Shown: positions 14,899 through 37,863 of the stretch, in pieces
Numbering within the stretch: position 1 is the first letter of the stretch
How the letters are laid out: every line of letters starts with the position of its first letter
Sequence record: MZ501109
Reading direction: 5' to 3' (one strand)
DNA length: 64,000 bases
From: Escherichia phage TrudiRoth
Program-made: the position numbers and the translations under genes
The notes under the pieces: model-generated
What the model was told of the DNA's origin: nothing
What the model saw: only the letters and a program-made list of their open reading frames with translations
The model's database searches: none

Positions 14899-15216
14899 AT
14901 GATTTTTCATATTCTGATTGATGATGTGCGTAACCTTCATGGAATGGACATTATCATTCGAACCCCCGAAGCCGCTGTTGAGTTTCTGAATAAAACCGAT
15001 ACCACAGGTCATTTCGTTTATATGGATAACGATCTGGCTGTAGATGGTATGGAAGGTTATCAAATTCTTCGTTTACTCCTAGAATTTGGTCAGAGACCCA
15101 AGAAAGTGGTACTAGTAACCTCGAACCCAGTAGCTAAAGAGACCATGCGTAATGATCTCTTAGACGAAGGGTATCAAGAAAGCCCTAATCGTATTGAGTA
15201 CGATTGGCCGGAGTAA
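14899..15216 (+). CDS. hypothetical protein
   Basis: 105-aa ORF behind promoter 14839-14867. Confidence 0.45.
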   Translation: MIFHILIDDVRNLHGMDIIIRTPEAAVEFLNKTDTTGHFVYMDNDLAVDGMEGYQILRLLLEFGQRPKKVVLVTSNPVAKETMRNDLLDEGYQESPNRIEYDWPE

Positions 15217-15221
15217 ATAAA

Positions 15222-15671
15222 ATGAAGGCAGCTTTGCTTTTAATAGCTGCCCTAACCTATAGCTTCAATAGTCATGCGACCTACGACTCAAAGCAGATTG
15301 ATTGCATTGCAAAAAATATCTACTTCGAAGCACGAGGTGAGGGCACTAAAGGAATGATCGCAGTTGCACAGGTTACTAAAAACCGTGTTAACTCTGGTAC
15401 TTTTCCTAATTCTTACTGTAAAGTAGTATATCAGTCTAACCAGTTCTCTTGGGTGGCCAAGAGACCAAAAGTTGATAAAACCGATGAGGCTTGGCAAGTT
15501 GCTAAGAATTTAGCTAGAGTGATATACTACGTTGATTTACCACAAGATCCAACACATGGAGCGTTATACTTCCATAGTGGTAAAGATAAACCGTACTGGA
15601 CAAAGAAGTTTAAGAAAACAACGAAGATTCAAGGCCATACGTTCTACAAGCCTGTGGTTAAGAAAACTTAA
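15222..15671 (+). CDS. SleB-like cell wall hydrolase with signal peptide
   Basis: Signal peptide MKAALLLIAALTYSFNSHA and hydrolase motif NIYFEARGEG...VAQVTKNRV; ATG 15222 preferred over TTG 15204. Confidence 0.65.
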   Translation: MKAALLLIAALTYSFNSHATYDSKQIDCIAKNIYFEARGEGTKGMIAVAQVTKNRVNSGTFPNSYCKVVYQSNQFSWVAKRPKVDKTDEAWQVAKNLARVIYYVDLPQDPTHGALYFHSGKDKPYWTKKFKKTTKIQGHTFYKPVVKKT

Positions 15672-23336: not shown

Positions 23337-23413
23337 GTCCTGTTAGACAAACTGGTAAAGTCACTACCCTTTCAAGGTAGGATTTGCGGGTTCGATCCCC
23401 GCACAGGACGCCA
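23337..23413 (+). tRNA. tRNA-Glu (anticodon UUC)
   Basis: Acceptor GUCCUGU/ACAGGAC, anticodon stem CUACC/GGUAG with loop CUUUCAA, T-arm GCGGG-UUCGAUC-CCCGC, CCA. Confidence 0.75.
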
Positions 23414-23421
23414 ATTTCTGC

Positions 23422-23498
23422 ATTCCTAGAGTGTTACTGGACAGCATGTCGGTCTCCAAAACCGTACGGTCTAGGTTCGAGTCCTAGTAGGTTTGCCA
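23422..23498 (+). tRNA. tRNA-like, anticodon CCA (Trp?), poorly paired
   Basis: T-arm CUAGG-UUCGAGU-CCUAG and CCA end are good; anticodon loop CUCCAAA; acceptor and D stems have mismatches. Confidence 0.3.
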
Positions 23499-23504
23499 AT
23501 ATTT

Positions 23505-23579
23505 GCACCTTTAGCTGAGATGGATTAGCGCTTGCCTGAAGAGCTTGAGAGGTTCGTTCGATACGAACAGGGTGCACCA
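23505..23579 (+). tRNA. tRNA-like, anticodon GAA (Phe?)
   Basis: Acceptor GCACCUU/AGGGUGC, T-arm GUUCG-UUCGAUA-CGAAC, CCA; anticodon loop CUGAAGA with two U-U mismatches in the stem. Confidence 0.4.
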
Positions 23580-23596
23580 ATTTGAAGGAGATGCTG

Positions 23597-23869
23597 ATGC
23601 ATCCTGAAAACTTCTTTATTTACTGTGCGGATAAGTCACTGAAACGCAGAATTAACAAAGTCTATCATTATCGTGCTAGTCAACAGCCTTATGTTTATGC
23701 TTTTGATGGAGATTACATCCCACTAGAACAGTTGGCCTGTGATTACATGGTTTTGAAGAACTTTGACGAGACAAAGATCTCAAGCGTTCATAATCGACAG
23801 AACCCGTTAACGTGGAAATATAAGAAGAAAAAGAAAGGCATCAAATTCTTAAAAAATGTAGTTGCTTAA
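23597..23869 (+). CDS. hypothetical protein
   Basis: RBS GAAGGAG then ATG 23597; ORF opens at 23582. Confidence 0.45.
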   Translation: MHPENFFIYCADKSLKRRINKVYHYRASQQPYVYAFDGDYIPLEQLACDYMVLKNFDETKISSVHNRQNPLTWKYKKKKKGIKFLKNVVA

Positions 23870-23890
23870 CCGCTTAAAGTTCTGTATAAT
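23862..23890 (+). promoter_or_regulatory. sigma70-type early promoter
   Basis: -35 TTGCTT, 17 bp, -10 TATAAT. Confidence 0.65.
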
Positions 23891-23919
23891 TATTACATAA
23901 ATTGAACTGGAGAAGCAAC

Positions 23920-24144
23920 ATGACAGAACAAGAATTGAAAGAACGTAAGCTGGTAATGCTTCGCTTACTAAACATTTTCTCTGGTATGGATGGTGGTATT
24001 GACTTCATTCAACTACGCACTTTTGTAGAAGAAGCAGAAGGCGAGGCTATCACTAGGATTCTTAAACATATGGGTTTGTTACTAGATGCTGCTAATGTGG
24101 CTACTCAATATAAACTCGAAGATTTACCGGAGCGTGTTAAATGA
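23920..24144 (+). CDS. hypothetical protein
   Basis: ATG 23920 behind promoter 23862-23890. Confidence 0.45.
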   Translation: MTEQELKERKLVMLRLLNIFSGMDGGIDFIQLRTFVEEAEGEAITRILKHMGLLLDAANVATQYKLEDLPERVK

Positions 24145-24332
24145 AAATGTTAGTTAAATTTAAGTGTTGTGGTTCTGAACATATTTTCACTCGTTATAGA
24201 GAGTTTAAGATGTGTGAGTGCGGTAAATCAGGCTACGATGCTGGAGATGGCTATTATGCTAGATCTATAGGACATTCTAAAGATCTAGAGTTTACTAATC
24301 TCGAAAAGCAAGATAAATCGACCGTTGGCTGA
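24141..24332 (+). CDS. zinc-ribbon protein
   Basis: 63 aa with CCGSEH...CECG; its stop overlaps the 5' end of a tRNA. Confidence 0.4.
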   Translation: MKMLVKFKCCGSEHIFTRYREFKMCECGKSGYDAGDGYYARSIGHSKDLEFTNLEKQDKSTVG

Positions 24333-24394
24333 ATGGCTTAGGCGGAGGCCTGCAAAACCTCCTTATGTGAGTTCGAATCTCATGCGGTCGTCCA
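24319..24394 (+). tRNA. tRNA-Cys (anticodon GCA)
   Basis: Acceptor CGACCGU/GCGGUCG, anticodon loop CUGCAAA, T-arm GUGAG-UUCGAAU-CUCAU, CCA; 5' end overlaps the stop of ORF 24141..24332. Confidence 0.5.
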
Positions 24395-24401
24395 AATTTT
24401 A

Positions 24402-24484
24402 GGGTCGTTAGCCAAGCGGTTTGGCGGTGGACTGTTAATCCATGTCGAAAGACAACGTAGGTTCGAATCCTACACGGCCCGCCA
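24402..24484 (+). tRNA. tRNA-Asn (anticodon GUU) with 13-nt variable region
   Basis: Acceptor GGGUCGU/ACGGCCC, D-stem GCCA/UGGC, anticodon loop CUGUUAA, variable GUCGAAAGACAAC, T-arm GUAGG-UUCGAAU-CCUAC, CCA. Confidence 0.5.
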
Positions 24485-24587
24485 TATTCTGTGTAGAGTT
24501 AAGTAAACCGGTAGCCAACCAGCTATCATTGCTGATATCGAATTCAGTCACAGATACCATTTTTCATTAACAACTGAGGAAATAGAT

Positions 24588-24776: not shown

Positions 24777-25358
24777 ATGCACGGAATATCCTTACCCATT
24801 CCAGGGTTTGAGGAGTACTTAGTAAGTTTGGATGGGTTAGTATTTAGTATCAAATCAAACAAAATACTAACCCAAATAACCAGTAATTACGGATACTTAT
24901 CTATACGTCTCCATAAAAATGGTCAACAGAGAAATACCGGTGTACATAGGATTTTAGCATGTGCATTTAAGAAATTACCAAGTCTAGACTCTGAACTAGA
25001 AGTTGACCATATTAACACAGACATTACTTATTGGGGTCTTAATAACTTACAAGTGCTCACAAAAGAGCAGCATCTAGAAAAGACTTTAAAAGATAAAGGA
25101 TTTAGTAAACTAAACCATGATAATTGTTGTAAGGATTGTGGTAAAGCTATTTCTTTAAAAGCTGAAAAATGTCAGGAGTGCTCTTCACATAAACCAAAAG
25201 ATATCTCTATAACTAAAGAAATAATCGAGGTTACAGTAAGAGAGCTAGGCTGGTCAGGTGCAGGGAGAAAGTTAAGTTATTCAGATAATGGGTTGCGTAA
25301 AAGATACACTTCTTTAGGAGGCAATCCTAAAGAACTTAAAAAGTTAAAGGTACTATAG
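24777..25358 (+). CDS. HNH homing endonuclease (second family)
   Basis: N-terminal GFEEYLVSLDGLVFS, HNH core HRILACAF...VDHINTD...NL and C-terminal Cys cluster; sits inside the tRNA array. Confidence 0.65.
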   Translation: MHGISLPIPGFEEYLVSLDGLVFSIKSNKILTQITSNYGYLSIRLHKNGQQRNTGVHRILACAFKKLPSLDSELEVDHINTDITYWGLNNLQVLTKEQHLEKTLKDKGFSKLNHDNCCKDCGKAISLKAEKCQECSSHKPKDISITKEIIEVTVRELGWSGAGRKLSYSDNGLRKRYTSLGGNPKELKKLKVL

Positions 25359-25423
25359 TCTAACGGTTAGGATACTCCCCTGTCACGGGAGAGGTAGGGT
25401 TTCGATTACCCTTAGTACCGCCA
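25349..25423 (+). tRNA. tRNA-Asp (anticodon GUC)
   Basis: Acceptor GGUACUA/UAGUACC, anticodon stem CUCCC/GGGAG with loop CUGUCAC, T-arm AGGGU-UUCGAUU-ACCCU, CCA; 5' end overlaps the HNH gene stop. Confidence 0.75.
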
Positions 25424-25429
25424 AATTAT

Positions 25430-25506
25430 ACATCCATAGCTCAATTGGTTAGAGCTACCGCCTCTTAAGCGGTAGGTTCTAGGTTCAAGTCCTAGTGGGT
25501 GTACCA
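25430..25506 (+). tRNA. tRNA-Lys (anticodon CUU)
   Basis: Acceptor ACAUCCA/UGGGUGU, D-stem GCUC/GAGC, anticodon stem ACCGC/GCGGU with loop CUCUUAA, T-arm CUAGG-UUCAAGU-CCUAG, CCA. Confidence 0.75.
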
Positions 25507-25719
25507 AACATCAGAGCAGCGTGATGTACTGCAAAGACCCAAAGTCCGGGGTGGACTTCTTGATTCAAAGGAGCAGGCACTAATTATCATTCTAGCGTGG
25601 TGGAGAGGGGACACCAGCTTGCCGAGGGTAGAAGCTCGTTCGATTCGAGTGAAAGAATGGTTCTCGTAAATCCGCACAAGTGATAGCAGGTTCAAGTCCT
25701 GCCTAGATTGACTTATTAT

Positions 25720-25793
25720 GCGTTCGTAGTTAAAAGGTATAATTTTTGGTTGCCAACCAGAAGTTGAGGGTTCGATTCCCTCCGACCGCACCA
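25720..25793 (+). tRNA. tRNA-Gly (anticodon GCC)
   Basis: Acceptor GCGUUCG/CGACCGC (one mismatch), D-stem GUUA/UAAU, anticodon loop UUGCCAA, T-arm GAGGG-UUCGAUU-CCCUC, CCA. Confidence 0.7.
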
Positions 25794-26102
25794 AATCTAT
25801 CAAACCAAGCCTGCGCATTCGTGTAACAACTTGTGCGTCTGTAAGGTGATAGTAAACAAGCCACGGAGTTCCGGCCGTTCAACGTGGTAAAATCTTCTGA
25901 ATAACAGGTCGTGGATACCTCTTTGGAGGCTCAACGGAAACGCAGGAGTGTAAGTAAACGAAAGTTTACTTATTATGTAGGTTCCGATAGATCGGCGGGT
26001 CTATTCTGGCATTTAAGAGAAGTCTCGCAAACTTCTTTGTCAGCCGTGGGGTTGGTAGCCTCCAGGTGGCCTACACAATAAGTAAATTTATTAAAAATTA
26101 AT

Positions 26103-26131
26103 TTGCTATTCTGCTTAATTATCTGTATAAT
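26103..26131 (+). promoter_or_regulatory. sigma70-type early promoter
   Basis: -35 TTGCTA, 17 bp, -10 TATAAT. Confidence 0.6.
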
Positions 26132-26165: not shown

Positions 26166-26405
26166 ATGAAAAAATATTCAGAAGAATTTCTAGAAGATAT
26201 GGATTTACATTACCTGTTAACTTTGGTTTTAGAAGAAAAAATCTATGACCAATTTGATCTAGAAGGTCTTACAAAAGTAGATTGTATTCGTGCCCTTCTC
26301 ACTGTTGAAACTCGCTATTTCGAATGTCAACAGTGTGGTGAAGTTAATGAGTGCTCTTGGGAATGTCCAGAGTGTGGATATGACGATCTGCTTGAAACAG
26401 AATAA
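26166..26405 (+). CDS. zinc-ribbon protein
   Basis: 79 aa with CQQCG...CPECG; flanked by two near-identical tRNA-Lys(CUU) cores. Confidence 0.5.
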   Translation: MKKYSEEFLEDMDLHYLLTLVLEEKIYDQFDLEGLTKVDCIRALLTVETRYFECQQCGEVNECSWECPECGYDDLLETE

Positions 26406-26408
26406 TAT

Positions 26409-26485
26409 CTCCGATTAGCTCAATTGGTTAGAGCTACCGCCTCTTAAGCGGTAGGTTCTAGGTTCAAGTCCTTCATTGGAGACCA
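26409..26485 (+). tRNA. tRNA-Lys (anticodon CUU)-like second copy with degenerate T-stem
   Basis: 58-nt core identical to the tRNA at 25430-25506, but T-stem 3' strand is CCUUC (3 bp only) and the acceptor differs; CCA present. Confidence 0.45.
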
Positions 26486-27763: not shown

Positions 27764-28097
27764 ATTTATATAAATTGATGCGAAAATAGCTGCCTAGATA
27801 CCAGGTGTATGACGTCTACACTAGCAGAGCTACCGAAAAAGAGATCCTCAGGATAAACGTCGTAGCAAAATTAGTCTGGTATCCATTAATTTAGTTCACT
27901 AAGGTATTAGCTCGACCTAGGACTGGCTGCCAAAAAGCACGATCCCTACGATTTGGGAGAAGTTCTAGATTAGTCCACTAGATTCAGCGGCAACTGAATA
28001 GTGTATCGGGTTTGTGAAGAGCAGCTATTCTCTACTGGCTAATGTCTGAGGTTAGTACGCACACCGAGCTAATAGCCTTAGTAAACTTAAAGAATTT

Positions 28098-28173
28098 GGG
28101 CGAATAGTGTCAGCGGGAGCACACCAGACTTGCAAGTCTGGTAGGGAGGGTTCGAGTCTCTCTTTGTCCACCA
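28098..28173 (+). tRNA. tRNA, isotype unresolved (Ala-UGC or Cys-GCA)
   Basis: Acceptor GGGCGAA/UUUGUCC, D-stem GUGU/ACAC, T-arm GAGGG-UUCGAGU-CUCUC, CCA; perfect anticodon stem CAGAC/GUCUG encloses only 6 nt (UUGCAA). Confidence 0.45.
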
Positions 28174-28735: not shown

Positions 28736-29251
28736 ATGCTAACACAACAAGAATTAAAATCCGTGTTGTTATATAAACCAGATACTGGAGAGTTTTTCTG
28801 GAAATATAGATCTGATTTAGATAGTCAATGGAATAGTAAATATGCTGGAACTAGGGCAGGATTTATTAATGAACTAGGCTATTGGAAGATAACTCTAGGA
28901 AATACTAGCTGGTTAGCACATCGTCTAGCATTCTTATACATGACTGGGGAAATACCAGATCTAATTGACCACAAGGATCAAGATAAGTCCAATACTAAAT
29001 GGGATAACTTACGAATAGCCACTGTATCACAGAATCAGGCTAATGCTAAATTAAGGGTAGATAATACCTCTGGGTACAAAAATGTAACTTGGCATAAGCA
29101 AAGAAATAAGTGGAAAGTAGAAGTACGTAAAGATGGCAAACTCCATTATGGTGGACTTTTTACAGAACTAGATAAAGCTGTAAATAAAGCTAATAATCTT
29201 AGACGTGAGTTATTCGGGGAATTTGCAGTATATGAAGAGTTTATGGGGTAG
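28736..29251 (+). CDS. HNH homing endonuclease with AP2-like domain
   Basis: Shares AHRLAFLYMTGE, DHKDQDK, NLR and GYKNV motifs with 6460, 39902 and 42058. Confidence 0.7.
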   Translation: MLTQQELKSVLLYKPDTGEFFWKYRSDLDSQWNSKYAGTRAGFINELGYWKITLGNTSWLAHRLAFLYMTGEIPDLIDHKDQDKSNTKWDNLRIATVSQNQANAKLRVDNTSGYKNVTWHKQRNKWKVEVRKDGKLHYGGLFTELDKAVNKANNLRRELFGEFAVYEEFMG

Positions 29252-29341
29252 GTCAATCCAACGGCTGGCGCTGGACTCCGACTTGAAATCGGTTGATCGT
29301 AGTGATACGGTGTAAGGGTTCGATCCCCTTACCTACCTCCA
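29247..29341 (+). tRNA. tRNA-Ser (anticodon UGA)
   Basis: Acceptor GGUAGGU/ACCUACC, anticodon loop CUUGAAA, long variable arm, T-arm AAGGG-UUCGAUC-CCCUU, CCA; 5' end overlaps the HNH gene stop. Confidence 0.7.
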
Positions 29342-29535: not shown

Positions 29536-29794
29536 AAATTCTTGGAATATGCCGGAATTGGTAGACGGGACTGCCGAATAGGTTTACTAGGAACATCCAC
29601 TCCTAGAAATATACCTTAAAAGCGGTTGAGTTAAATGGTATAACTCATGAAGGTTCAAGTCCTTCTATTCCTTGATACATCAATGGCTCAAAGTGTAACG
29701 GTGCTATTTGATGCTCTTGGCAAGACTTCCCCGACATGCGTTCGGGAGTAAGCTGCTAAGACTAGAGTAGAAGAGTTTCAACAAGACAACGATA

Positions 29795-30626: not shown

Positions 30627-30702
30627 AGTTAGTTGGCAGAGTGGTTATGCACCTCCTTCATACGGAGCGACTACAGTGGTTCAAATCCACTACTAACTAC
30701 CA
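30627..30702 (+). tRNA. tRNA-Met/Ile2 (anticodon CAU)
   Basis: Acceptor AGUUAGU/ACUAACU, anticodon loop UUCAUAC, T-arm AGUGG-UUCAAAU-CCACU, CCA. Confidence 0.7.
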
Positions 30703-30740
30703 TAAAAAAGAGCTAGAGATAGCTAAATATAGGAGCAAGT

Positions 30741-30935
30741 GTGTTAACTGTTAAAATAATGTCTGCAAATGGTGGTGAAGAAATTCATGATGGTAATAGC
30801 GTAGGATTTAATCCTAAAAATAAGAGTATTCATGTCTCGGGATTAGATCAAGCCATATTCCTAAAAGAGGATGAAGTCGCCTACGTTATGAATCAGAACG
30901 GTAAAACAGTTTCTGTTTACTACGGTAAGCTGTAA
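30741..30935 (+). CDS. hypothetical protein
   Basis: 64 aa, GTG start after AGGAG. Confidence 0.4.
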   Translation: MLTVKIMSANGGEEIHDGNSVGFNPKNKSIHVSGLDQAIFLKEDEVAYVMNQNGKTVSVYYGKL

Positions 30936-31302
30936 AGAACAGAGGATCAGGTCATTGTACCAGATCCTGCTGAGAAGAGAGTCCACATTCTATAAATGGC
31001 CGGGCGTGACAGCAGGAAGTAGACTGCAACTCCATGCTATCCAGGAGTATAAATGTAGAAGCTAAGACTTTAGATAGCCATTGTCTTAGCGTGAGCAATC
31101 ACGTAGTTGCAACAGACCTGGAAGATCGCAACGTTAAAATCAAAGCTCCTGTGCTTATTAAACTGAATGGGACTATCAATCCACAAGCCGGACTACGAGC
31201 GATTATCGGGTATTCACTTAATAAGCAAGCCTGCCTTCCAGTTTTTATCTTGCTTCTGGGTTAACAAAAAGCTGAGCCAAATTCTAACATCAGGGAGATC
31301 TA

Positions 31303-31671
31303 ATGAAAGCATATCAAAGTCTTAAGTCTGGCGTAATTAACATTGTTCATAACAATCAGATCATTCAACTATATTCTAAAGATGGTGAACTTAAACAGAA
31401 AGTTCTAGTCGAAGATCTAGAAGGTATCACACCTCACTTTGACCCTGAGGCCTTTCGCATTGTAGATGTGGAAGTGGTTCCTCAAGTCGAGGGTGGTCAG
31501 CACCTAAATGTCAATGTGTTAAGCCGTGATCAGCTTTTGGATGCACAGAAACATCCTGAAAAATATCCTCAGTTGACCATCCGTGTCTCTGGCTATGCTG
31601 TTCGATTTAACGCATTGACGCGTGAACAACAGAACGACGTTATTAGTCGTACATTTACTCAGGCGATATAA
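31303..31671 (+). CDS. grcA: autonomous glycyl-radical cofactor GrcA/YfiD-like
   Basis: [12 protein letters not shown]...[37 protein letters not shown] closely matches the C-terminal glycyl-radical domain of GrcA/PFL; RVSGY radical site. Confidence 0.8.
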
Positions 31672-31752
31672 TGGGGTTTGGATACGATTTCTCCCAGCTA
31701 CGCAAGGTAGTCGAGCAAACTCCATTTATCTCCCAAGTTTTAGGAGAAATGT

Positions 31753-32052
31753 GTGGATCGAGCATTAAGACGCCATCACCGGCAACGTGTGAAAAACAAT
31801 CGCAAAAAGTATTGGACAGTCTTCCCACATGAAGAAAGTCCTAAGCGGTTAGGCATTATCACTACCACTCCTTGCATCTGTTCTTGTTGGATGTGTGGGA
31901 ATCCTCGCAAATACTATAAGAATAGTAAAGCAGGCATGAAAATCTCGGAGATTAAAAAGATGGATGCAATGATTATGGGCATCACCTTTACAGGTGGTAT
32001 CTCTGATGAATTCGACGGTTTTGTAACTCAGGATATTGTCGAAATTATCTAA
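31753..32052 (+). CDS. hypothetical protein
   Basis: 99 aa, GTG start; terminator follows. Confidence 0.35.
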   Translation: MDRALRRHHRQRVKNNRKKYWTVFPHEESPKRLGIITTTPCICSCWMCGNPRKYYKNSKAGMKISEIKKMDAMIMGITFTGGISDEFDGFVTQDIVEII

Positions 32053-32062
32053 TTAATAATAA

Positions 32063-32098
32063 ACCCCAGCTATTGAATAGGTAGTCTGGGGTTTTCTT
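32063..32098 (+). terminator. rho-independent terminator
   Basis: Stem ACCCCAG/CUGGGGU followed by UUUUCUU. Confidence 0.65.
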
Positions 32099-32116
32099 GT
32101 ATGTAGGATTTTCGAA

Positions 32117-32302
32117 ATGAAAATTTTTAAAGTGAACTATAGCGGCCTGTGGTTAGGTGGTACAGCTATTGTCGTTGCAGAAACTGCAGAAGAAGCAATC
32201 GAACTGACTAGAAACCATAGAAGTTCTATAGAATTCGAGGATGTGACAGTAGAAGAACTCCCGAGCAGTGGGGTAGTATACAACAACAACGGAGATTACT
32301 GA
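32117..32302 (+). CDS. hypothetical protein
   Basis: 61-aa ORF. Confidence 0.4.
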   Translation: MKIFKVNYSGLWLGGTAIVVAETAEEAIELTRNHRSSIEFEDVTVEELPSSGVVYNNNGDY

Positions 32303-32360
32303 TGTTATATTTTGAAGTTCGCCCACATTAAGTTAATTTAAAAGACTTAATGGAGGTAAT

Positions 32361-32756
32361 ATGAGCCGTACATATCGTAAACAATCTGGTGATCGTCACT
32401 GGCGTGATGCACATCGTTCTACTTATAATTTTCATAGCACTAATATCCGTATTCCGTATACCTACACGGATAGGGATGGTAAGCAGTGGAAGTATTATCA
32501 AGTTCGATCCAATGAAGCATGGGCTAAAACTTGGGATGAAATTGAGAAGGAGATTCAGGAAAATATCATCCGTAACGAGAAGAAAGATGGGCACTGGTGG
32601 GATTCTGTTAGTAGGAATGTTAAGTGGCATTCTAACAAAATGGTTCGTCAGGGAAACCGTCGCGAACTTCATCGTGTGATGAAAGATCCAGAAAATTACG
32701 ACTATAATCGCGATCATGATCTGCGTAAGCGTGGGTTATGGTGGTGCTACGACTAA
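32361..32756 (+). CDS. hypothetical protein
   Basis: 131 aa, Trp/His/Arg-rich, RBS GGAGG. Confidence 0.5.
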   Translation: MSRTYRKQSGDRHWRDAHRSTYNFHSTNIRIPYTYTDRDGKQWKYYQVRSNEAWAKTWDEIEKEIQENIIRNEKKDGHWWDSVSRNVKWHSNKMVRQGNRRELHRVMKDPENYDYNRDHDLRKRGLWWCYD

Positions 32757-32773
32757 TTTCGTAAATAATTCAT

Positions 32774-32802
32774 TTGCTAAAACCCTCTCCTTTTGATATA
32801 AT
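32774..32802 (+). promoter_or_regulatory. sigma70-type early promoter
   Basis: -35 TTGCTA, 17 bp, -10 TATAAT. Confidence 0.65.
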
Positions 32803-32832
32803 ATTTATATAAATTGATGAGAGGGCTTTGAA

Positions 32833-33105
32833 ATGAAAGAAGCAGAAATTAATGAAATGGCTAGAATATTCATCGTTTCCTATATGCAAGGCAGTTGCAA
32901 TAGTTTATTCGAGTCTGCTATAGTATTTCAGGAAATGTTAGCCGAGAAAGGCGTACATATGGAAGATACTGAAATTGAAGATCTTCTAATGGAAACTTGT
33001 AGTAGTGCTGAAGTCTTCCAGTGTGGTAACTGTAATTGGTGGTGTCCAGAGCATGATCGTTCTGAAGAAGGTTCCTACTGTTCCGATTGTGAAGGAGAAG
33101 AATAA
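32833..33105 (+). CDS. Cys-rich small protein
   Basis: 90 aa with CGNCNWWC...CSDC behind promoter 32774-32802. Confidence 0.5.
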   Translation: MKEAEINEMARIFIVSYMQGSCNSLFESAIVFQEMLAEKGVHMEDTEIEDLLMETCSSAEVFQCGNCNWWCPEHDRSEEGSYCSDCEGEE

Positions 33106-33404
33106 TGAATAAGTTTATTATTGCTCTAGTAATTTCAGCAGTTAGTTTCGGTTCTCTGGCATCTACCAAAGTTTCTATGAAAAATGGTAATGTTAAAGTT
33201 CAGCAGAATGGCATTACCACCGAATATGGTAAAGTACGTGATGTAAAAGAACGTAATGGCAAAGTAGAAATATATACTAATAAAAACTTCTCTACTCCGG
33301 CTGTTACTGTTAGTAAACGTGGTGAAATCACTACTCAACGTACTAATAGTTCTGATTCTTTTACTTGCCGTTATGACTGCGGCTTTGAAGGTGAAGATGA
33401 GTAA
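33105..33404 (+). CDS. secreted protein
   Basis: 99 aa with signal peptide MNKFIIALVISAVSFGSLAS. Confidence 0.5.
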   Translation: MNKFIIALVISAVSFGSLASTKVSMKNGNVKVQQNGITTEYGKVRDVKERNGKVEIYTNKNFSTPAVTVSKRGEITTQRTNSSDSFTCRYDCGFEGEDE

Positions 33405-33816
33405 TTTAGACCCTAGAATTAAACATGCAGTCGAAGAAATCCAAGATCAGATAGATGAGGACTTCACTGTTTGGTCAAGATTTGGCAATGGTGAAGGCTG
33501 TCAGCTTTATAGCATGAAAATGGGCATCTCGATTGAACTTAGTATCAATCCAGAGGGCAACGTAGAAGCCCAACCCATGTTCAGTGTTCCAGGCTTCTCT
33601 GGATTTGTTATGGGCATGAAACTATGTCTACCAAATAAACATCTTTACCGTGTTATCTGTCAGCTAGAAACAATTAAACATTTCTTGCCAGAAGATAACA
33701 TTAATGACTACTATCATGAAGTTGTAGCAGCTTACATGATGAAAGAACGCAAACGTCGGAGAGAAGAACGTGAAAGAGCTAAATCTCAACAGTCTAGTAC
33801 AGATTCCAGCAACTGA
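33397..33816 (+). CDS. hypothetical protein
   Basis: ATG 33397 overlaps the previous stop; track ORF opens at 33319. Confidence 0.45.
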   Translation: MSNLDPRIKHAVEEIQDQIDEDFTVWSRFGNGEGCQLYSMKMGISIELSINPEGNVEAQPMFSVPGFSGFVMGMKLCLPNKHLYRVICQLETIKHFLPEDNINDYYHEVVAAYMMKERKRRREERERAKSQQSSTDSSN

Positions 33817-34063
33817 TGCTGTACTAGAATATCTTAGAAAGGATCATGTTAAATTCTGGACTGATTATAGCTACGAGCATAACTCAGATTTAGCTACTGA
33901 TTTTGCAAATAAACGAATAGCTGAGTATACAGATCCTAGAGTTAAGAATGGTGTGATTACTTTACCACTTTGGGATGTGATGGAAAAGTTTGGTAAAGAT
34001 TTGTGCCCAGGTTGTGTACCATTGTTTGTTACTATTCTAATTGATGAAAAGGATCTTAAATGA
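33770..34063 (+). CDS. hypothetical protein
   Basis: 97 aa, GTG start overlapping the upstream ORF. Confidence 0.35.
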   Translation: MKELNLNSLVQIPATDAVLEYLRKDHVKFWTDYSYEHNSDLATDFANKRIAEYTDPRVKNGVITLPLWDVMEKFGKDLCPGCVPLFVTILIDEKDLK

Positions 34064-34344
34064 TTATCTCTCCATTTGCTTTGTGGTTTGTTATTGGTGC
34101 AGTTGTCGCGATTTACAGCCTGATTGATGATCTGTATATCTCTAAAAATAAAGATGTTATTCTTTATGTTATAAACAAATATCGTCCACCAGAATTAGCA
34201 GAATTTGACAATGAAAAGATGTTCAAATTCATTATGTCAGGTATGCTTATCATGGACACCTTGTTCGGGCCAGTAGCTACTTACTTCTTCTTCCGTAAAA
34301 CTCGTAAGATGAAAAAGTTTCGCGCTGAAATGCAGAGCAAGTAA
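34060..34344 (+). CDS. membrane protein
   Basis: 94 aa with two hydrophobic segments. Confidence 0.45.
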   Translation: MIISPFALWFVIGAVVAIYSLIDDLYISKNKDVILYVINKYRPPELAEFDNEKMFKFIMSGMLIMDTLFGPVATYFFFRKTRKMKKFRAEMQSK

Positions 34345-34461
34345 AGAACTCGCGTAGGACCGAGTTGCGTCACCTGCAACTGTTACGGATAAGGGAGTCG
34401 TGCCCCTTTAGTGCGGTAAGTGGTGAGTTGGTCGCTGACCTCAACTTTAACTGGAGATATC

Positions 34462-34809
34462 ATGAGCTTTATTTTATTCAGTGTAGCAGCATGGTTTATT
34501 ATTGGTTTAGGCTATGCTATTGCAGTTATTCGTCATCTGGATGAATATTCTGCTGAATGGTTTATTAAGTACCTACGTTTAGACGATCGAGAACACGAGT
34601 TCGACAGTGCTGAGGAAAGACAGGCTGTCCAGTCAATGACTCCCAAAGAATGCTTGCTTTACATGCGTGTAATTGGTTTCTTTGGACTGTTGGTAGTGGG
34701 GCCGCTAGGTCTTACTATTGCTCCCTACAAAGAAGTTGTTGACGACATTAAACTATGGAGAACCGCTGGATCGCTACGTCGTGCTAGAGAATTAAGTAAA
34801 CAAGAGTGA
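34462..34809 (+). CDS. membrane protein
   Basis: ATG 34462 after GGAGAT; track ORF opens at 34420. Confidence 0.45.
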   Translation: MSFILFSVAAWFIIGLGYAIAVIRHLDEYSAEWFIKYLRLDDREHEFDSAEERQAVQSMTPKECLLYMRVIGFFGLLVVGPLGLTIAPYKEVVDDIKLWRTAGSLRRARELSKQE

Positions 34810-34844
34810 TGATAATCACCTCCTAGCAAGAATAATAATGACAA

Positions 34845-34880
34845 AGCCCAGCCTGCAATTTTGCGACTGGGCTATTTTTG
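34845..34880 (+). terminator. rho-independent terminator
   Basis: Stem AGCCCAG/CUGGGCU followed by AUUUUUG. Confidence 0.6.
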
Positions 34881-34894
34881 TAATAAAATTTCAG

Positions 34895-34923
34895 TTGCTC
34901 AGATGCCACAAGTATTGTATAAT
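34895..34923 (+). promoter_or_regulatory. sigma70-type early promoter
   Basis: -35 TTGCTC, 17 bp, -10 TATAAT. Confidence 0.6.
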
Positions 34924-34954
34924 ATGTTTATAGATTGAGGCAAAAGGATAATTT

Positions 34955-35653
34955 ATGAGAATCATTTCAAAGTTCAATGATGTATACGATTTGCAGAATA
35001 GTTTATTTGATCCAGATCGTGTCTGGGAGCGTAAAACTGAAGAGCTGCGAGTAAAAGTAACTGACGATGTAGAAAAGAATATCGTTCATAATCGTCAGGT
35101 GTTTCGTGAGGGTTCCTTATCCTTCCGTGGTGACTTCGAATACTCAGTAAATCCACTGTTTATTGCAGGCGAAGTTTACTGGTTACATGAACTGTCCTGC
35201 TGGCATCCAGCATTCAGTTTCAAAACGTTCAACATCGATGCTGTGTTCGATAAAATGGAAGAAATGGGATTACATGCCCGTTCTTACTTACTAGATAAGA
35301 ATCGTGGTGATGTTCGTGAAACCATGCGAGATATGTTGGTTGAAGCAAAACCTAAAGCAGAACGTATCTTATCTGAACTGCGCGTACCAATTGCATATGT
35401 GAAAGGTATTAAGAAGAACGATAACGATGATGTTCGTAACTTCGTAATTCAGACAAACATTCGTTTCCATCAGTCAGGTATTCCGTGGCAGGAAATTGAA
35501 AGTAACTTATACCGTTTACACCAAGTTCTCGAACAGTATATCTTCGGTGTACTAGGAACTGGTGAGCCTGATATGATTACCGTATCAGATAAAGACAGGT
35601 TAGCAGCACATGGATTTGATACAAAAACTTCTTTCAGGAATATGGCAAGGTAA
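34955..35653 (+). CDS. hypothetical protein
   Basis: 232 aa behind promoter 34895-34923. Confidence 0.5.
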   Translation: MRIISKFNDVYDLQNSLFDPDRVWERKTEELRVKVTDDVEKNIVHNRQVFREGSLSFRGDFEYSVNPLFIAGEVYWLHELSCWHPAFSFKTFNIDAVFDKMEEMGLHARSYLLDKNRGDVRETMRDMLVEAKPKAERILSELRVPIAYVKGIKKNDNDDVRNFVIQTNIRFHQSGIPWQEIESNLYRLHQVLEQYIFGVLGTGEPDMITVSDKDRLAAHGFDTKTSFRNMAR

Positions 35654-36059
35654 GTGGTATATCCTGGGAGCTGGTCTTGCGATAGGTATCGGATTCGGTG
35701 CTTATCACTTAGTTAATAAGGTTGAGACTCTAGCAGGTGATCTTGCAGTTGCGACTAAAAAGATCTCCACTCTAGAGACTTCTCTTAATAAAGTGAAAAC
35801 TGAGAGTGAACTTCGTGAGACTCGAATGAACCAGTATTTCACAATGAATAATATTTCGCAAGCAGATCTAGACAAAAAGATTAAGCAGTTAGATAAAGCT
35901 CTTAGTCGTCAAGATGTTATCGCTGCAAAGCCTGGATTGGTAACATTAATTGCTAAAAAGCAGAATAAAGAGTTCGAGGAAAGATTAGCGTGTTTAACTG
36001 GAAACTTGGAGTACTGCTCGCAGCCGCAATCACAATCACAGGCTGTGCAGAAGAAATAA
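35610..36059 (+). CDS. i-spanin-like protein (putative)
   Basis: N-terminal TM segment (WYILGAGLAIGIGFGAY) followed by coiled coil. Confidence 0.45.
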   Translation: MDLIQKLLSGIWQGKWYILGAGLAIGIGFGAYHLVNKVETLAGDLAVATKKISTLETSLNKVKTESELRETRMNQYFTMNNISQADLDKKIKQLDKALSRQDVIAAKPGLVTLIAKKQNKEFEERLACLTGNLEYCSQPQSQSQAVQKK

Positions 36060-36343
36060 AACCGGAGCCATCCCATGAGTTAAAGCAAGCTCATATAGAT
36101 TGGCCTAAAGGACTTCAGCCGTGTAGCTTTGATTTCAAATTCGAAAAGAAATTAGCTACAAATGGTGAAGATGGCGTAGTAGTTGTTGTACCTTACAAAG
36201 ATTGGAATGCAAAAGCAAAATGCGAGGAAGCAGTTTACTCTTACATTTCACGACTGACCGGTATGGTTTGCTTCTATCGTCAAGATTTACAAGAAAAACG
36301 TTGCTTAGTTTATTATCCACCCATTACAAATAGGAAAGATTAA
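35990..36343 (+). CDS. o-spanin-like lipoprotein (putative)
   Basis: Signal peptide with lipobox ITGC; start lies in the +1 frame inside the end of the i-spanin-like ORF. Confidence 0.5.
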   Translation: MFNWKLGVLLAAAITITGCAEEIKPEPSHELKQAHIDWPKGLQPCSFDFKFEKKLATNGEDGVVVVVPYKDWNAKAKCEEAVYSYISRLTGMVCFYRQDLQEKRCLVYYPPITNRKD

Positions 36344-37095
36344 TGTCAGTATTAGTCGGTTTACACGGTGAGGCTGGTGCGGGAAAAGATACCGTTGCAG
36401 AATTAATGATTGACTGGTGTAATGACACGTTCCCAACGTGTTTATCCCGTCGTTACAGTTTTGCTAAACCCGTTTACGAACTTGCATCCGTAATCCTCGG
36501 GGTAACTCCAGAGTTTCTGGGAGAGCGCAGGGGGAAAGAGATTGACCAATGGTTTACAGTCACACAATCTCAATTGGAGCGAGCTAGAGACATATGGTTT
36601 AAGTATGGTATCGATAAGTTTGAGGACTTCTCGTACGTTTGGCCTATTTTTGAAGGAAAATACCTTGATCCTCAGCAGTTAATTGGGCAAGCTGATGATG
36701 CGCTGTATAGCGTGTTTATCTCCCCAAGAAAAATGCTACAGCTTGTAGGTACTGAGTTAGGAAGGCAGCTGGTGCATGAACGCATTTGGCTCATAATTCT
36801 GGAGCAATCCATCGATAAAGACGACCCAGACGTCGCAATCGTTACCGATGTGCGTTTTCCCAATGAGGGAGAGCTAATCATGGAAACCAATACTCTAGAT
36901 ATGGATTCCATACTTATTAAGGTTGAATCTGGTATTACTAATAAGTATCGCATCGAGACAGATCATCCGTCTGAAAGCGGTATTCCTGAAAAATACATTT
37001 CTCATAAATTTGAGAATACCTTCAACGGACTTGATGCACTTCGTACCGATGTGTACCACTTCTGTGACTTAGAGCTAGAACCACTAGTTGGATAA
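36343..37095 (+). CDS. dnk: deoxynucleoside monophosphate kinase
   Basis: P-loop GLHGEAGAGKDT; 250 aa as for T5 Dnk. Confidence 0.7.
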   Translation: MSVLVGLHGEAGAGKDTVAELMIDWCNDTFPTCLSRRYSFAKPVYELASVILGVTPEFLGERRGKEIDQWFTVTQSQLERARDIWFKYGIDKFEDFSYVWPIFEGKYLDPQQLIGQADDALYSVFISPRKMLQLVGTELGRQLVHERIWLIILEQSIDKDDPDVAIVTDVRFPNEGELIMETNTLDMDSILIKVESGITNKYRIETDHPSESGIPEKYISHKFENTFNGLDALRTDVYHFCDLELEPLVG

Positions 37096-37107
37096 TTAAG
37101 GATCACT

Positions 37108-37707
37108 ATGACTAACAAGAAAGAAGAAAAGACTAACCTGTTTCACACTGTTCGCCAATCTAATGAGTATACCTTTTTCTTTGACGAAGAGTTAGGCTCA
37201 CCGGATGAGTATCGTGATCTATCAATGATACTGATGCAGGCTGGTGAAGATGATGAAATTAATCTGATGATTAATGGGCCTGGTGGTTACGTTGATACTG
37301 CTGCACAGCTATCTAACCTAATAGCTAACTGTCGTGGAACGGTTATTGGGCACCTGCTCGGTCCTAGTGCTTCTGCTTACTGCACAATCTTCCTATCTTG
37401 CCACGGTTGGGTTGTACATCCACATGCTACGCTTATGGGACATACGTTCTCTGGCGGATTCTGCGAGAAAGGTCAAGAAATCAAGAAAGCCTATGAATCC
37501 TACAACCAGTTTGTAGAAGATATGATGCTAGATATTTACTTTCCGTTCTTCTCTGTCGACGAAATCGAGGACATGGTAAAAGAGAATAAGAATATCTATC
37601 TCAACAGCAAAGAAATCAATAAGCGTATTGAAATTTTGGCGAATTATCGTAAAGAGCAGTGTAGTAAAGCTCAAGCCCCACATCCAGAAGAACATGGAGA
37701 AGTGTAA
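37108..37707 (+). CDS. ClpP-family serine peptidase-like protein
   Basis: INLMINGPGGYVDTAAQL resembles ClpP IYLYINSPGG; candidate catalytic Ser in GPSASAY and His in HPHATLMGH. Confidence 0.6.
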   Translation: MTNKKEEKTNLFHTVRQSNEYTFFFDEELGSPDEYRDLSMILMQAGEDDEINLMINGPGGYVDTAAQLSNLIANCRGTVIGHLLGPSASAYCTIFLSCHGWVVHPHATLMGHTFSGGFCEKGQEIKKAYESYNQFVEDMMLDIYFPFFSVDEIEDMVKENKNIYLNSKEINKRIEILANYRKEQCSKAQAPHPEEHGEV

Positions 37708-37715
37708 GTAGTTTT

Positions 37716-37750
37716 AAGCCAGAGTTTAACGACTCTGGCTTTTCTTTTGC
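37716..37750 (+). terminator. rho-independent terminator after the ClpP-like gene
   Basis: 10-bp stem AAGCCAGAGU/ACUCUGGCUU followed by UUUCUUUUG. Confidence 0.75.
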
Positions 37751-37863
37751 CTAAAATTCTTCTTGACAACGACAAAAAATTGTGCTCCAGAAGTGATCTT
37801 AAAAAACACATTGTAATTTTACTCTAGAATTAGTATAATGGTAGTGGTTAGAGGAGGTTACAA

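What the first reader, a model, noticed from the sequence alone, without database searches (positions are those of the whole stretch)
25794..26095. About 300-nt ORF-free, structure-rich segment between tRNA-Gly and the next promoter
No ORF; contains a perfect 9-bp GAAA-tetraloop hairpin (TAAGTAAAC-GAAA-GTTTACTTA near 25960-25985) and other complementary pairs. Older T5 literature mentions stable small RNAs besides tRNAs in this part of the genome.
Basis: partly seen in the sequence, partly recalled or inferred. Interest (0 to 1): 0.4.

Follow-up and report, generated by a model that had tools for sequence, protein, structure and literature searches.

The report
T5 stable RNA IV gene region
The ORF-free stretch after tRNA-Gly holds the gene for "RNA IV", a small stable RNA of T5-like phages that has long been annotated but whose function is unknown, preceded by three small unannotated conserved RNA hairpins.

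Summary
The window is a T5-like phage tRNA region. Window 25975-26077 is the homologue of "RNAIV", annotated as a stable RNA of unknown function in the BF23 and T5 GenBank records and lying directly upstream of promoter P13a (window 26103-26131). Comparison of 31 distinct sequences, including a distant copy in Pectobacterium phage DU_PP_V, supports a four-way junction: 47 pairs, 99% paired, 19 with compensatory changes. Two loops are kept throughout, GGCG and CUCGCA(A). An 11-bp stalk formed by the flanks encloses the RNA. They are nearly isoenergetic. The 5' half (25794-25948) is three hairpins. Their stems covary, and one carries an invariant palindromic loop, UUCCGGCCGUU. No Rfam family matches, no reading frame is conserved, and no E. 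coli or bacterial homologue was found. A viable T5 deletion mutant lacks the locus. Most likely this is a processed accessory RNA cut from the tRNA precursor. What it does is unresolved. It is a known entity with an open function: interest is moderate.

The parts
25720..25793 (+). tRNA-Gly(GCC), the upstream neighbour. Together with the 5' half it forms a cassette that T5-type phages lack.
   Evidence: ARAGORN; Rfam tRNA 61.1 bits; absent in AKFV33/T5-type loci.
25708..25720 (+). Direct repeat TTGACTTATTATG. Its partner TTTACTTATTATG lies at 25965-25977. The pair brackets the tRNA-Gly + M1-M3 cassette.
   Evidence: the repeat finder D2. In T5-type phages RNA2 abuts RNA IV at this junction.
25797..25852 (+). 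M1: an imperfect hairpin directly after the tRNA-Gly CCA end.
   Evidence: Fold -16.6 kcal/mol, z = -2.56. 16 pairs, 3 with compensatory changes, among window, BF23 and DU_PP_V. Other phages carry a non-homologous hairpin at the same place.
25860..25888 (+). M2: a 6-bp stem (GCCACG/CGUGGU) with a 17-nt loop containing the invariant UUCCGGCCGUU. The palindrome CGGCCG lies at 25872-25877.
   Evidence: RNAalifold on 7 variants: 6 pairs, 4 with both-sided change. DU_PP_V has a third stem version, GGCAAG/CUUGCU. Also present in about 75 Klebsiella Sugarlandvirus phages that lack RNA IV.
25894..25948 (+). M3: a hairpin closed by CUUCUG/CAGGAG, with a variable inner stem-loop.
   Evidence: Folds. Closing stem invariant; inner pairs covary among window, KKP_3711 and DU_PP_V. 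Shorter in BF23 and Epseptimavirus types.
25951..25972 (+). Its 3' arm is also the 5' arm of the RNA IV stalk, so the two pairings exclude each other.
   Evidence: I6; chance 28/5000. Enforced hairpin -45.9 against enforced stalk -49.0 kcal/mol. The 5' arm is absent in T5-type phages and present in DU_PP_V.
25964..25974 (+). Stalk 5' arm, GUUUACUUAUU.
   Evidence: Inverted repeat I1. Pairs with 26077-26087 in the MFE structure. In DU_PP_V all 11 pairs are kept: two U-A pairs become U-G and the terminal G-U becomes G-C.
25975..26077 (+). RNA IV gene, homologous to the 103-nt BF23/T5 rnaIV. Four-way junction: P1 25977-25985 with 26065-26074; H1 25986-26005 (GGCG tetraloop 25994-25997); H2 26006-26043 (apical loop CUCGCAA 26024-26030); H3 26048-26062.
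   Evidence: Annotations; mapping. Structure and covariation. Covariance-model hit 25964-26087, 146.2 bits. H3 variants.
26077..26087 (+). Stalk 3' arm, AAUAAGUAAAU. It overlaps the A+T-rich region upstream of the next promoter.
   Evidence: Deleted in phage vaffelhjerte (L118).
26103..26131 (+). Promoter (P13a in BF23/T5): TTGCTA, 17-nt spacer, TATAAT. It starts the next transcription unit.
   Evidence: 10 of 12 matches. Annotated as promoter P13a in BF23 and T5.

Best explanation
The segment is the non-coding 3' end of a tRNA transcription unit in a T5-like phage. It carries two things.

(1) The gene for RNA IV (25975-26077). This RNA folds as a four-way junction: a closing helix P1 plus three hairpins. 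Two GC-rich loops are conserved across the family, GGCG on H1 and CUCGCA(A) on H2.

(2) Three short hairpins, M1-M3, lying between tRNA-Gly and RNA IV.

Shown here: homology to the annotated rnaIV; the fold and its covariation; conservation of the loops; the flanking 11-nt inverted repeat that can close a stalk around the RNA; the absence of any conserved ORF; and the restriction of the family to T5-like phages.

Inferred: the region is read through from a promoter upstream of the tRNA genes. RNA IV is then released by endonucleolytic cleavage at the stalk/P1 boundary. The annotated ends fall exactly in the small internal loop between the stalk and P1, and stalk plus P1 make about 20 bp of stacked helix, as an RNase III site would. 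In DU_PP_V they form one continuous helix of about 21 bp. The compact junction then survives as a stable RNA.

In phages that have the upstream arm, the local GAAA hairpin competes with the stalk and could modulate this processing.

The RNA is an accessory factor, because a T5 mutant with the locus deleted is viable. It most likely acts by presenting its conserved loops to a partner that is not yet known.
For: Identity: BF23 and T5 records annotate rnaIV at the homologous place, next to promoter P13a. The covariance model scores 146.2, 146.0 and 144.8 bits.

Structure on the MAFFT alignment of 30 distinct sequences: 41 pairs, 99.0% paired, 7 pairs with both-sided changes against 0.9 +/- 0.9 in shuffles (0 of 500) and 0-2 in slid controls.

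Structure with the distant DU_PP_V copy added (39.3 bits, E about 1e-9): 47 pairs, 19 with both-sided changes against 3.4 +/- 1.5, in all five helices (that alignment is fitted to the model).

Loops: CUCGCAA is invariant in 30 variants, while its closing pair changes U-A to C-G in phage smaug. GGCG is invariant except for one GGUG variant (L119). DU_PP_V keeps GGCG and CUCGCA on entirely different stems.

Stalk: z = -4.55 for 25948-26095. DU_PP_V keeps all 11 stalk pairs: two U-A pairs become U-G and the terminal G-U becomes G-C, as expected for RNA pairing.

Non-coding.

No promoter-like site on the + strand between 24400 and 26102.

Dispensable: the T5Mos deletion 30661-38625 is viable (PMC11464382), and rnaIV lies at 32841-32943 in T5 coordinates.

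Not host-derived: no match in 5,426 E. coli genomes. All 25 hits among bacterial species representatives fail the model.
Against: No transcript data were available, so the transcript ends, its stability and the processing enzyme all rest on the GenBank annotation and on geometry.

The stalk is sequence-invariant within Markadamsvirinae, so it has no compensatory support there. Its 3' arm overlaps the A+T-rich region upstream of P13a, which could explain that arm's conservation at the DNA level. One phage (vaffelhjerte) has lost the 3' arm.

Most compensatory changes come from only three lineages: the GreteKellenberger/STWB21 group, smaug and DU_PP_V.

No partner for the conserved loops has been identified, so a function beyond being a stable processing product is not demonstrated.
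Confidence: 0.7

Rival explanations
1. RNA IV is a tRNA mimic or decoy. In this view it is a tRNA-derived cloverleaf whose H2 tip imitates an anticodon stem-loop (C-U-CGC-A-A). It would trap or divert a host tRNA-directed enzyme such as an anticodon nuclease or a modification enzyme, or it would kiss the complementary anticodon of host tRNA-Arg(ICG).
For: - Four-way junction with a closing helix of 7-9 bp, located in a tRNA cluster.
- The 7-nt loop has U at position 2 and A at positions 6-7, like an anticodon loop, and is invariant.
- E. coli tRNA-Arg(ACG) has the loop CUACGAA, and its anticodon is complementary to CGC (plus base-pairing rules).
- The phage encodes no tRNA-Arg(ACG), yet 72% of its Arg codons are CGU/CGC/CGA.
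- T5 tRNA-region genes are known counter-defence factors (PMC11464382).
Against: - No tRNA or tRNA-like family match, even at E <= 10. ARAGORN is silent.
- Junction linkers differ from tRNA: none between P1/H1 and H1/H2, and 1-4 nt flanking H3.
- H1 has 8 bp with a tetraloop instead of a D-arm. There is no T-loop consensus. The 3' end is ACA, not CCA.
- Any CU-NNN-AA loop is complementary to some anticodon, so the tRNA-Arg match carries little statistical weight.
Confidence: 0.12
2. RNA IV is an antisense partner of another phage stable RNA, RNA 2H. The apical loop of H2 would pair with a single-stranded stretch of RNA 2H.
For: In T5/BF23-type phages, RNA 2H positions 106-115 read GUUUGCGAGA, a perfect complement of UCUCGCAAAC in RNA IV. 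The best duplex is -19.7 kcal/mol against -10.6 +/- 1.9 for shuffles (0 of 200). The stretch is largely unpaired in the RNA 2H MFE structure.
Against: - In this window RNA 2H (27905-28078) reads GUUUGUGAAG. The duplex is -12.0 kcal/mol, matched by 34 of 200 shuffles.
- In smaug the site is GUUCGUGAAG. It does not compensate for smaug's changed loop-closing pair, and no comparable loop-to-site duplex is found there (its best duplex maps elsewhere in RNA 2H and is matched by 148 of 200 shuffles).
- No RNA 2H homologue was found in 6 kb downstream of the DU_PP_V copy.
- The match was noticed post hoc.
- The RNA IV loop stays invariant where the proposed partner varies.
Confidence: 0.07
3. There is no trans-acting function. 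The hairpins and RNA IV would be punctuation: structured spacers that direct cleavage of the polycistronic tRNA precursor and protect neighbouring RNAs from exonucleases. RNA IV would be merely a long-lived by-product.
For: - Position at the very end of a tRNA unit.
- Modular, swappable hairpins with non-homologous replacements of M1 and M3.
- Loss of M1-M3 in T5-type phages, and loss of the whole locus in viable T5Mos.
Against: Processing signals need helices, not specific loop sequences. Yet GGCG and CUCGCA are kept between two phage subfamilies while every stem changed. The M2 loop UUCCGGCCGUU is likewise invariant over three stem versions.
Confidence: 0.15
4. The stalk plus the following U-rich run acts as a transcription terminator or insulator, separating the tRNA unit from promoter P13a. 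The GAAA hairpin would act as an anti-terminator.
For: - The stalk 3' arm is followed by UUUAUU, and the next promoter is about 15 nt away.
- The two mutually exclusive pairings differ by only 3.1 kcal/mol.
- RNA IV sits directly before P13a in nearly all genomes, whatever lies upstream.
Against: - The terminator scan finds no + strand site here.
- The stalk is A+U-rich and encloses about 100 nt, unlike an intrinsic terminator.
- DU_PP_V has no U run after the stalk.
- KKP_3711 has a different downstream sequence.
Confidence: 0.05
5. The segment encodes a small protein. Some GenBank records place 'hypothetical protein' CDSs over it.
For: A 56-aa GTG ORF lies at 25911-26081. 'Hypothetical protein' features overlap the match in a few records.
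Against: Every frame acquires stops in some variant. The +1 frame is open in T5-type sequences but has 6 stops in the GreteKellenberger group. Indels are 1-3 nt, and the substitutions are compensatory in helices.
Confidence: 0.01

Closest known systems
RNA IV (rnaIV) of bacteriophages T5 and BF23, from GenBank AY692264 and AJ604530/NC_042564 annotations by the Ksenzenko laboratory
   Same: Same locus, same strand relative to the tRNA genes, same neighbour (promoter P13a). Near-identical sequence in the RNA IV part of the alignment, against 80.0% identity over the whole 302-nt query. Same 103-nt extent.
   Different: In T5 itself RNA IV directly follows the tRNA-like RNA2. This window, like BF23, has tRNA-Gly plus hairpins M1-M3 and the GAAA hairpin inserted between them. 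The records give no structure and no function.
Other T5/BF23 'stable' and 'tRNA-like' RNAs of the same region (RNA I, RNA III, RNA 2H; RNA1, RNA2, RNA3)
   Same: Small non-coding RNAs interleaved with tRNA genes, of unknown function. RNA III also folds with a long closing stem and three hairpins. Homologues of RNA3, RNA2, RNA 2H, RNA1 and RNA I are present in this window.
   Different: The RNA IV covariance model finds no second copy and none of these RNAs. They are not detectable paralogues.
tRNA (Rfam RF00005) and tRNA-like structures
   Same: Cloverleaf-type four-way junction, a 7-nt apical loop with U at position 2 and purines at positions 6-7, location in a tRNA operon, and probable excision from a precursor.
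   Different: No covariance-model match at E <= 10. There is an 8-bp/tetraloop arm instead of a D-arm, a 13-bp interrupted 'anticodon' arm, no T-loop motif and no CCA.
Phage T4 species 1 and species 2 RNAs (rnaC, rnaD) of the T4 tRNA cluster (from my own knowledge, not checked here)
   Same: Stable small RNAs co-transcribed and processed with phage tRNAs. They are dispensable, and their function has remained unknown for decades.
   Different: Different phage family. No sequence comparison was made here.
RNase III processing stalks, such as those flanking rRNAs and the phage T7 early mRNA sites (from my own knowledge)
   Same: Complementary flanks form about 20 bp of stacked helix with a small internal loop around a structured RNA. 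The annotated ends of RNA IV fall in that internal loop.
   Different: Cleavage was not tested. The lower helix is only 11 bp and very A+U-rich. One phage lacks the 3' arm.

Membership tests
T5/BF23 RNA IV | Sequence homology to the annotated rnaIV | tested here: met
   Alignment to BF23: 80.0% identity over the whole 302-nt query, near-identical over RNA IV. Covariance model: 146.2 bits on the window, 146.0 on BF23, 144.8 on T5.
T5/BF23 RNA IV | Position at the end of a tRNA unit, directly upstream of promoter P13a | tested here: met
   Promoter-like site at 26103-26131. Annotations of BF23 and T5 st0.
T5/BF23 RNA IV | Accumulates as a discrete stable RNA in infected cells | not testable with these tools
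   Rests on the GenBank note 'stable RNA with unknown functions'. No expression data are available here.
tRNA / tRNA-like (Rfam RF00005, clan CL00001) | Match to the tRNA covariance model or to a tRNA finder | tested here: not met
   No Rfam match in 25794-26110 at E <= 10. ARAGORN reports nothing between 25793 and 26409.
tRNA / tRNA-like (Rfam RF00005, clan CL00001) | Cloverleaf four-way junction with a 7-bp acceptor helix | tested here: met
   P1 of 7-9 bp plus three hairpins, supported by covariation.
tRNA / tRNA-like (Rfam RF00005, clan CL00001) | D-loop and T-loop consensus, and a 3' CCA | tested here: not met
   H1 is 8 bp with a GGCG tetraloop. H3 loops read UUGGUAG, UUGAUAG or UUUGAAG. 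The 3' end is ACA.
Any curated RNA family (Rfam 15, 4227 models; includes tmRNA, 6S, Y RNA, riboswitches, phage motifs) | Covariance-model match | tested here: not met
   The related loci L121, L150 and L151 also give only tRNA hits.
Intrinsic terminator | G+C-rich hairpin followed immediately by a U run | tested here: not met
   No + strand terminator-like site in 25794-26100. The stalk is A+U-rich and encloses about 100 nt.
RNase III processing site | About two turns of double helix around the cleavage site | tested here: inconclusive
   An 11-bp stalk, a 2x3 internal loop and a 9-bp P1. DU_PP_V has one continuous helix of about 21 bp with a single bulge. Cleavage was not tested.
Protein-coding gene | Reading frame conserved among homologues | tested here: not met

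The most novel reading that the evidence does not exclude
RNA IV may be a phage counter-defence or translation-control RNA. It would use its two conserved loops (GGCG and the anticodon-like CUCGCAA) to bind a specific partner. Candidates are host tRNA-Arg(ICG), on which the phage depends for 72% of its Arg codons, a tRNA-directed nuclease, or (in T5/BF23) the phage RNA 2H. The upstream M2 hairpin, with its palindromic CGGCCG loop, would be a second, older functional RNA element of Demerecviridae.
Probability: 0.12. Interest if true: 0.7.

Novelty: already known. Interest (0 to 1): 0.38.

Why it matters
The T5 tRNA region is now known to hold counter-defence genes. Examples are tRNA-Lys against PARIS and tRNA-Tyr against a retron. 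Its non-tRNA RNAs, however, have stayed without function since they were first annotated, and none is in Rfam.

This work adds:
- a covariation-supported fold for RNA IV;
- two conserved loops that can be mutated without touching the helices;
- a distant homologue in a Pectobacterium phage;
- three unannotated conserved hairpins upstream.

These make the old question of what these RNAs do directly testable. As a discovery, though, the element itself is already annotated in public records.

Tried and rejected
- **Rfam.** Searches at permissive thresholds on the window and on related loci found only tRNAs.
- **Metagenome scan.** The pattern used the two stalk arms. It gave 92 loci, only about 10 of them real, and all were T5-like. 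This added little diversity.
- **Viral contigs.** A tRNA-Gly anchor gave 4 loci and an RNA IV pattern gave 18.
- **Bacterial genomes.** The scan gave 25 hits, all in unrelated G+C-rich taxa, and all failed the covariance model.
- **E. coli.** blastn against 5,426 genomes found no match.
- **Paralogy.** No paralogy with RNA I, RNA III or RNA 2H was detected. The tRNA region of Klebsiella phage Sugarland has no RNA IV.
- **Alternative D-arm-like hairpin** (CCGA-UAGA-UCGG) instead of H1. By inspection of alignment A3 it is broken (A.C) in two variants that improve H1, while H1 has compensatory changes. Rejected as the main fold.
- **Host shut-off by sequestering tRNA-Arg(ICG).** Disfavoured, because the phage itself uses CGU/CGC/CGA for 72% of its Arg codons.
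- **RNA IV-RNA 2H pairing.** Significant only in T5/BF23-type phages and not in this window.
- **Literature.** Five searches found no open-access paper describing RNA IV. Only context papers turned up.
- **Simple promoter scan of 23400-24500.** It did not locate the upstream promoter of the unit.

Full report
**What is there.** The window is the tRNA region of a T5-like phage (Demerecviridae). ARAGORN finds 23 tRNA genes on the + strand. They include tRNA-Gly(GCC) at 25720-25793, and the next tRNA starts at 26409. The finding's interval, 25794-26095, ends just before a strong promoter-like site, TTGCTA-17-TATAAT, at 26103-26131. That site precedes a real ORF at 26166-26405. G+C across 25400-26000 is 0.45-0.50, like the tRNA genes, against about 0.27-0.38 in neighbouring coding DNA.

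**Checking the observation.**
- Only short mechanical ORFs overlap the interval. The longest is 56 aa with a GTG start, at 25911-26081.
- No frame remains open across 30 sequence variants. For example, the frame that is open in T5-type sequences has six stops in the GreteKellenberger group.
- The perfect 9-bp hairpin with a GAAA loop exists at 25951-25959 / 25964-25972. This is about 10 nt left of the stated position.
- Such a hairpin arises in 28 of 5000 dinucleotide-preserving shuffles.
- The whole 302 nt folds with z = -2.56 on the + strand and z = -2.25 on the - strand.
- The signal is concentrated in 25948-26095: -49.0 kcal/mol, z = -4.55.
- Most of the 5' half, folded as 25801-25950, is not unusually stable (z = -0.55).

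**Identity of the 3' part.**
- BLAST against phage genomes shows that window positions from about 25948 to 26095 are conserved in about 405 records. Those whose taxonomy I inspected are Markadamsvirinae (Tequintavirus, Epseptimavirus and relatives). The 5' half occurs at 80% coverage or more in only about 20-24 records.
- The BF23 tRNA-region record AJ604530 annotates a misc_RNA 'rnaIV, RNAIV, stable RNA with unknown functions', followed by 'promoter P13a'. By pairwise alignment this is window 25975-26077.
- The T5 st0 record AY692264 carries the same rnaIV feature at 32841-32943, between rna2 and P13a.

Rfam has no family for it: nothing matches in 25794-26110 even at E <= 10.

**Structure of RNA IV.** I collected 30 distinct sequences from the phage, IMG/VR and metagenome collections and aligned them as A3. 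RNAalifold predicts the following:
- an outer stalk, GUUUACUUAUU with AAUAAGUAAAU;
- a closing helix P1 of 7-9 bp;
- hairpin H1 (8 bp, GGCG loop);
- a long interrupted hairpin H2 (5 + 8 bp, loop CUCGCAA).

A short hairpin H3 is seen in every variant when that segment is folded alone.

On the MAFFT alignment, 41 pairs are 99.0% paired. Seven pairs show both-sided changes, against 0.9 +/- 0.9 in shuffles (0 of 500) and 0-2 in slid controls.

I then built a covariance model, R1. It finds one copy per genome and no paralogue among RNA I, RNA III or RNA 2H.

It also finds a distant copy in Pectobacterium phage DU_PP_V, which belongs to a different subfamily, Mccorquodalevirinae. The hit is L150:1361-1478, 39.3 bits, E about 1e-9.

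With that sequence included, 47 pairs are 99.0% paired. Nineteen have both-sided changes, against 3.4 +/- 1.5 in shuffles and 2-6 in slid controls, and all five helices contribute. That alignment is fitted to the model, so it leans towards the structure.

The loop CUCGCAA is invariant in all 30 Markadamsvirinae variants, while its closing pair changes from U-A to C-G in phage smaug. GGCG is invariant apart from one GGUG variant (L119). DU_PP_V keeps GGCG and CUCGCA on completely different stems. The alternative D-arm-like hairpin CCGA/UCGG is less consistent with the variants than H1.

- Its 3' arm (25964-25972) is the 5' arm of the stalk, so hairpin and stalk exclude each other.
- Enforcing either one gives -45.9 (hairpin) against -49.0 kcal/mol (stalk).
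- The upstream arm is missing in T5-type phages, where the tRNA-like RNA2 abuts RNA IV.
- Both arms are present in DU_PP_V.
- The stalk is invariant within Markadamsvirinae, so it gets no compensatory support there.
- In DU_PP_V all 11 stalk pairs are kept. Two U-A pairs become U-G and the terminal G-U becomes G-C, which fits pairing in RNA.
- One phage, vaffelhjerte, has lost the 3' arm.
- That arm also overlaps the A+T-rich region upstream of P13a, which is a possible DNA-level reason for its conservation.
- The annotated ends of RNA IV lie exactly in the 2x3 internal loop between the stalk and P1. Stalk plus P1 give about 20 stacked base pairs, and in DU_PP_V they form one continuous helix of about 21 bp.

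This geometry is what an RNase III site looks like. The assignment is an inference, not a test.

**The 5' half.** It consists of three hairpins.
- **M1 (25797-25852)** has z = -2.56 and three compensatory pairs among window, BF23 and DU_PP_V. Other phages carry unrelated hairpins at the same spot.
- **M2 (25860-25888)** has a 6-bp stem in three different versions: GCCACG/CGUGGU here, GGCGAU/AGUCGCU in BF23 and others, and GGCAAG/CUUGCU in DU_PP_V. All three surround the invariant loop UUCCGGCCGUU. M2 also occurs in about 75 Klebsiella Sugarlandvirus phages. Sugarland itself, the one whose tRNA region I searched, has no RNA IV.
- **M3 (25894-25948)** keeps its closing stem CUUCUG/CAGGAG, while its interior varies with compensation.

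A direct repeat, TTGACTTATTATG at 25708 and TTTACTTATTATG at 25965, brackets tRNA-Gly plus M1-M3. T5-type phages lack exactly this block. DU_PP_V has the full order: RNA2, a 3' remnant of tRNA-Gly, M1, M2, M3, hairpin/stalk, RNA IV-like RNA. The window's arrangement is therefore probably the older one, and the T5 arrangement a deletion.

**Function.**
- Nothing here assigns a function.
- The locus is dispensable in the laboratory. T5Mos carries a deletion of 30661-38625, which covers rnaIV at about 32841-32943, and it still grows on hosts without PARIS (PMC11464382).
- There is no homologue in E. coli genomes. All 25 pattern hits in bacterial species representatives fail the model.
- The anticodon-like loop has 'anticodon' CGC, which is complementary to the anticodon of host tRNA-Arg(ICG). 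The phage encodes no such tRNA, although 72% of its Arg codons need it.
- Any such loop matches some anticodon, however, so this is only a lead.
- In T5/BF23-type phages, RNA 2H contains GUUUGCGAGA, a perfect complement of the RNA IV loop. The duplex is -19.7 kcal/mol, with 0 of 200 shuffles as good.
- The window's own RNA 2H reads GUUUGUGAAG (-12.0 kcal/mol; 34 of 200 shuffles as good). Smaug's version does not compensate for its changed closing pair.
- I therefore do not adopt the RNA 2H pairing for this window.

**Verdict.** The core element is the already annotated RNA IV gene of T5-like phages.

New here are:
- a covariation-supported fold and two conserved loops;
- the stalk/hairpin alternative pairing;
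- a homologue in another phage subfamily;
- three unannotated conserved hairpins upstream.

The most likely account is a processed, dispensable, stable RNA cut from the tRNA precursor. Its partner and role remain unknown.

Noticed in passing
window 25503-25586 (between tRNA-Lys(CTT) and RNA2): A block of about 80 nt is 97.6% identical in Klebsiella Sugarlandvirus phages. There it sits between tRNA-Lys and tRNA-Phe, while its flanks are unrelated. It folds into three small hairpins, but the three sequences compared show no variation that could test them. No Rfam match.
   Followed up: partly
window 25588-25713: Homologue of BF23/T5 'RNA2' (tRNA-like, 125 nt). It has an acceptor-like stem, a D-arm and a T-arm, with a large insertion in place of the anticodon arm. 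ARAGORN and Rfam do not call it here. In Enterobacter phage KKP_3711 a tRNA-Arg(CCG) is annotated between tRNA-Lys and tRNA-Gly, where RNA2 lies here.
   Followed up: partly
window 27905-28078; L001:3894-4065: Homologue of stable RNA 2H. T5/BF23-type RNA 2H carries a 10-nt perfect complement (GUUUGCGAGA) of the invariant RNA IV loop. The window's version switches to a different 3' half right inside that motif and reads GUUUGUGAAG.
   Followed up: yes
L124:9370-9540 (Sugarland); L121:~280-400 (smaug); L003: A structured 'element X' of about 110 nt (GCAAUGGGGCAGAC...GGGUGGCAUUUUCCC, with repeated GGCA/UGCC motifs). It lies between M2 and RNA IV in smaug, and between M2 and the promoter in Sugarland. 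No Rfam match in the loci searched, smaug and KPN4.
   Followed up: partly
window 15423-15530: The RNA IV covariance model gives a weak hit here (23.1 bits). It is a cloverleaf-shaped fold closed by a perfect 11-bp inverted repeat (GUAGUAUAUCA/UGAUAUACUAC), and it lies inside the ORF 15204-15671, which overlaps it. The T5 homologue of this hit lies inside the 'cell wall hydrolase homolog' CDS and scores 18 bits. Probably a chance match, because the model has low sequence information.
   Followed up: partly
window 24487-24559, 29541-29684, 29685-29779: Homologues of BF23 RNA3, RNA1 and RNA I (tRNA-like or stable RNAs of unknown function) are also present in this window.
   Followed up: no
window 28098-28173 and 29247-29337: ARAGORN calls a tRNA with a four-base anticodon 'tgca' at 28098-28173, and BF23 annotates a tRNA-Ala directly after RNA 2H at the corresponding position. 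Separately, a tRNA-Sec-model hit below threshold (38.3 bits) at 29247-29337 is not called by ARAGORN and is probably a long-arm tRNA-Ser.
   Followed up: no
L118 (Salmonella phage vaffelhjerte), 3' flank of RNA IV: This phage has a deletion that removes the 3' arm of the stalk (CCTACACAATAAAACTCATTTGCTA). The stalk is therefore not indispensable, or this RNA IV copy is processed differently.
   Followed up: no
window 25349-25793: This block (tRNA-Asp, tRNA-Lys, RNA2, tRNA-Gly) is 100% identical to Salmonella phage bux. Bux matches only the RNA IV half of the finding, at 93.9%. The window is therefore a mosaic, with a recombination junction at or near the tRNA-Gly 3' end.
   Followed up: no
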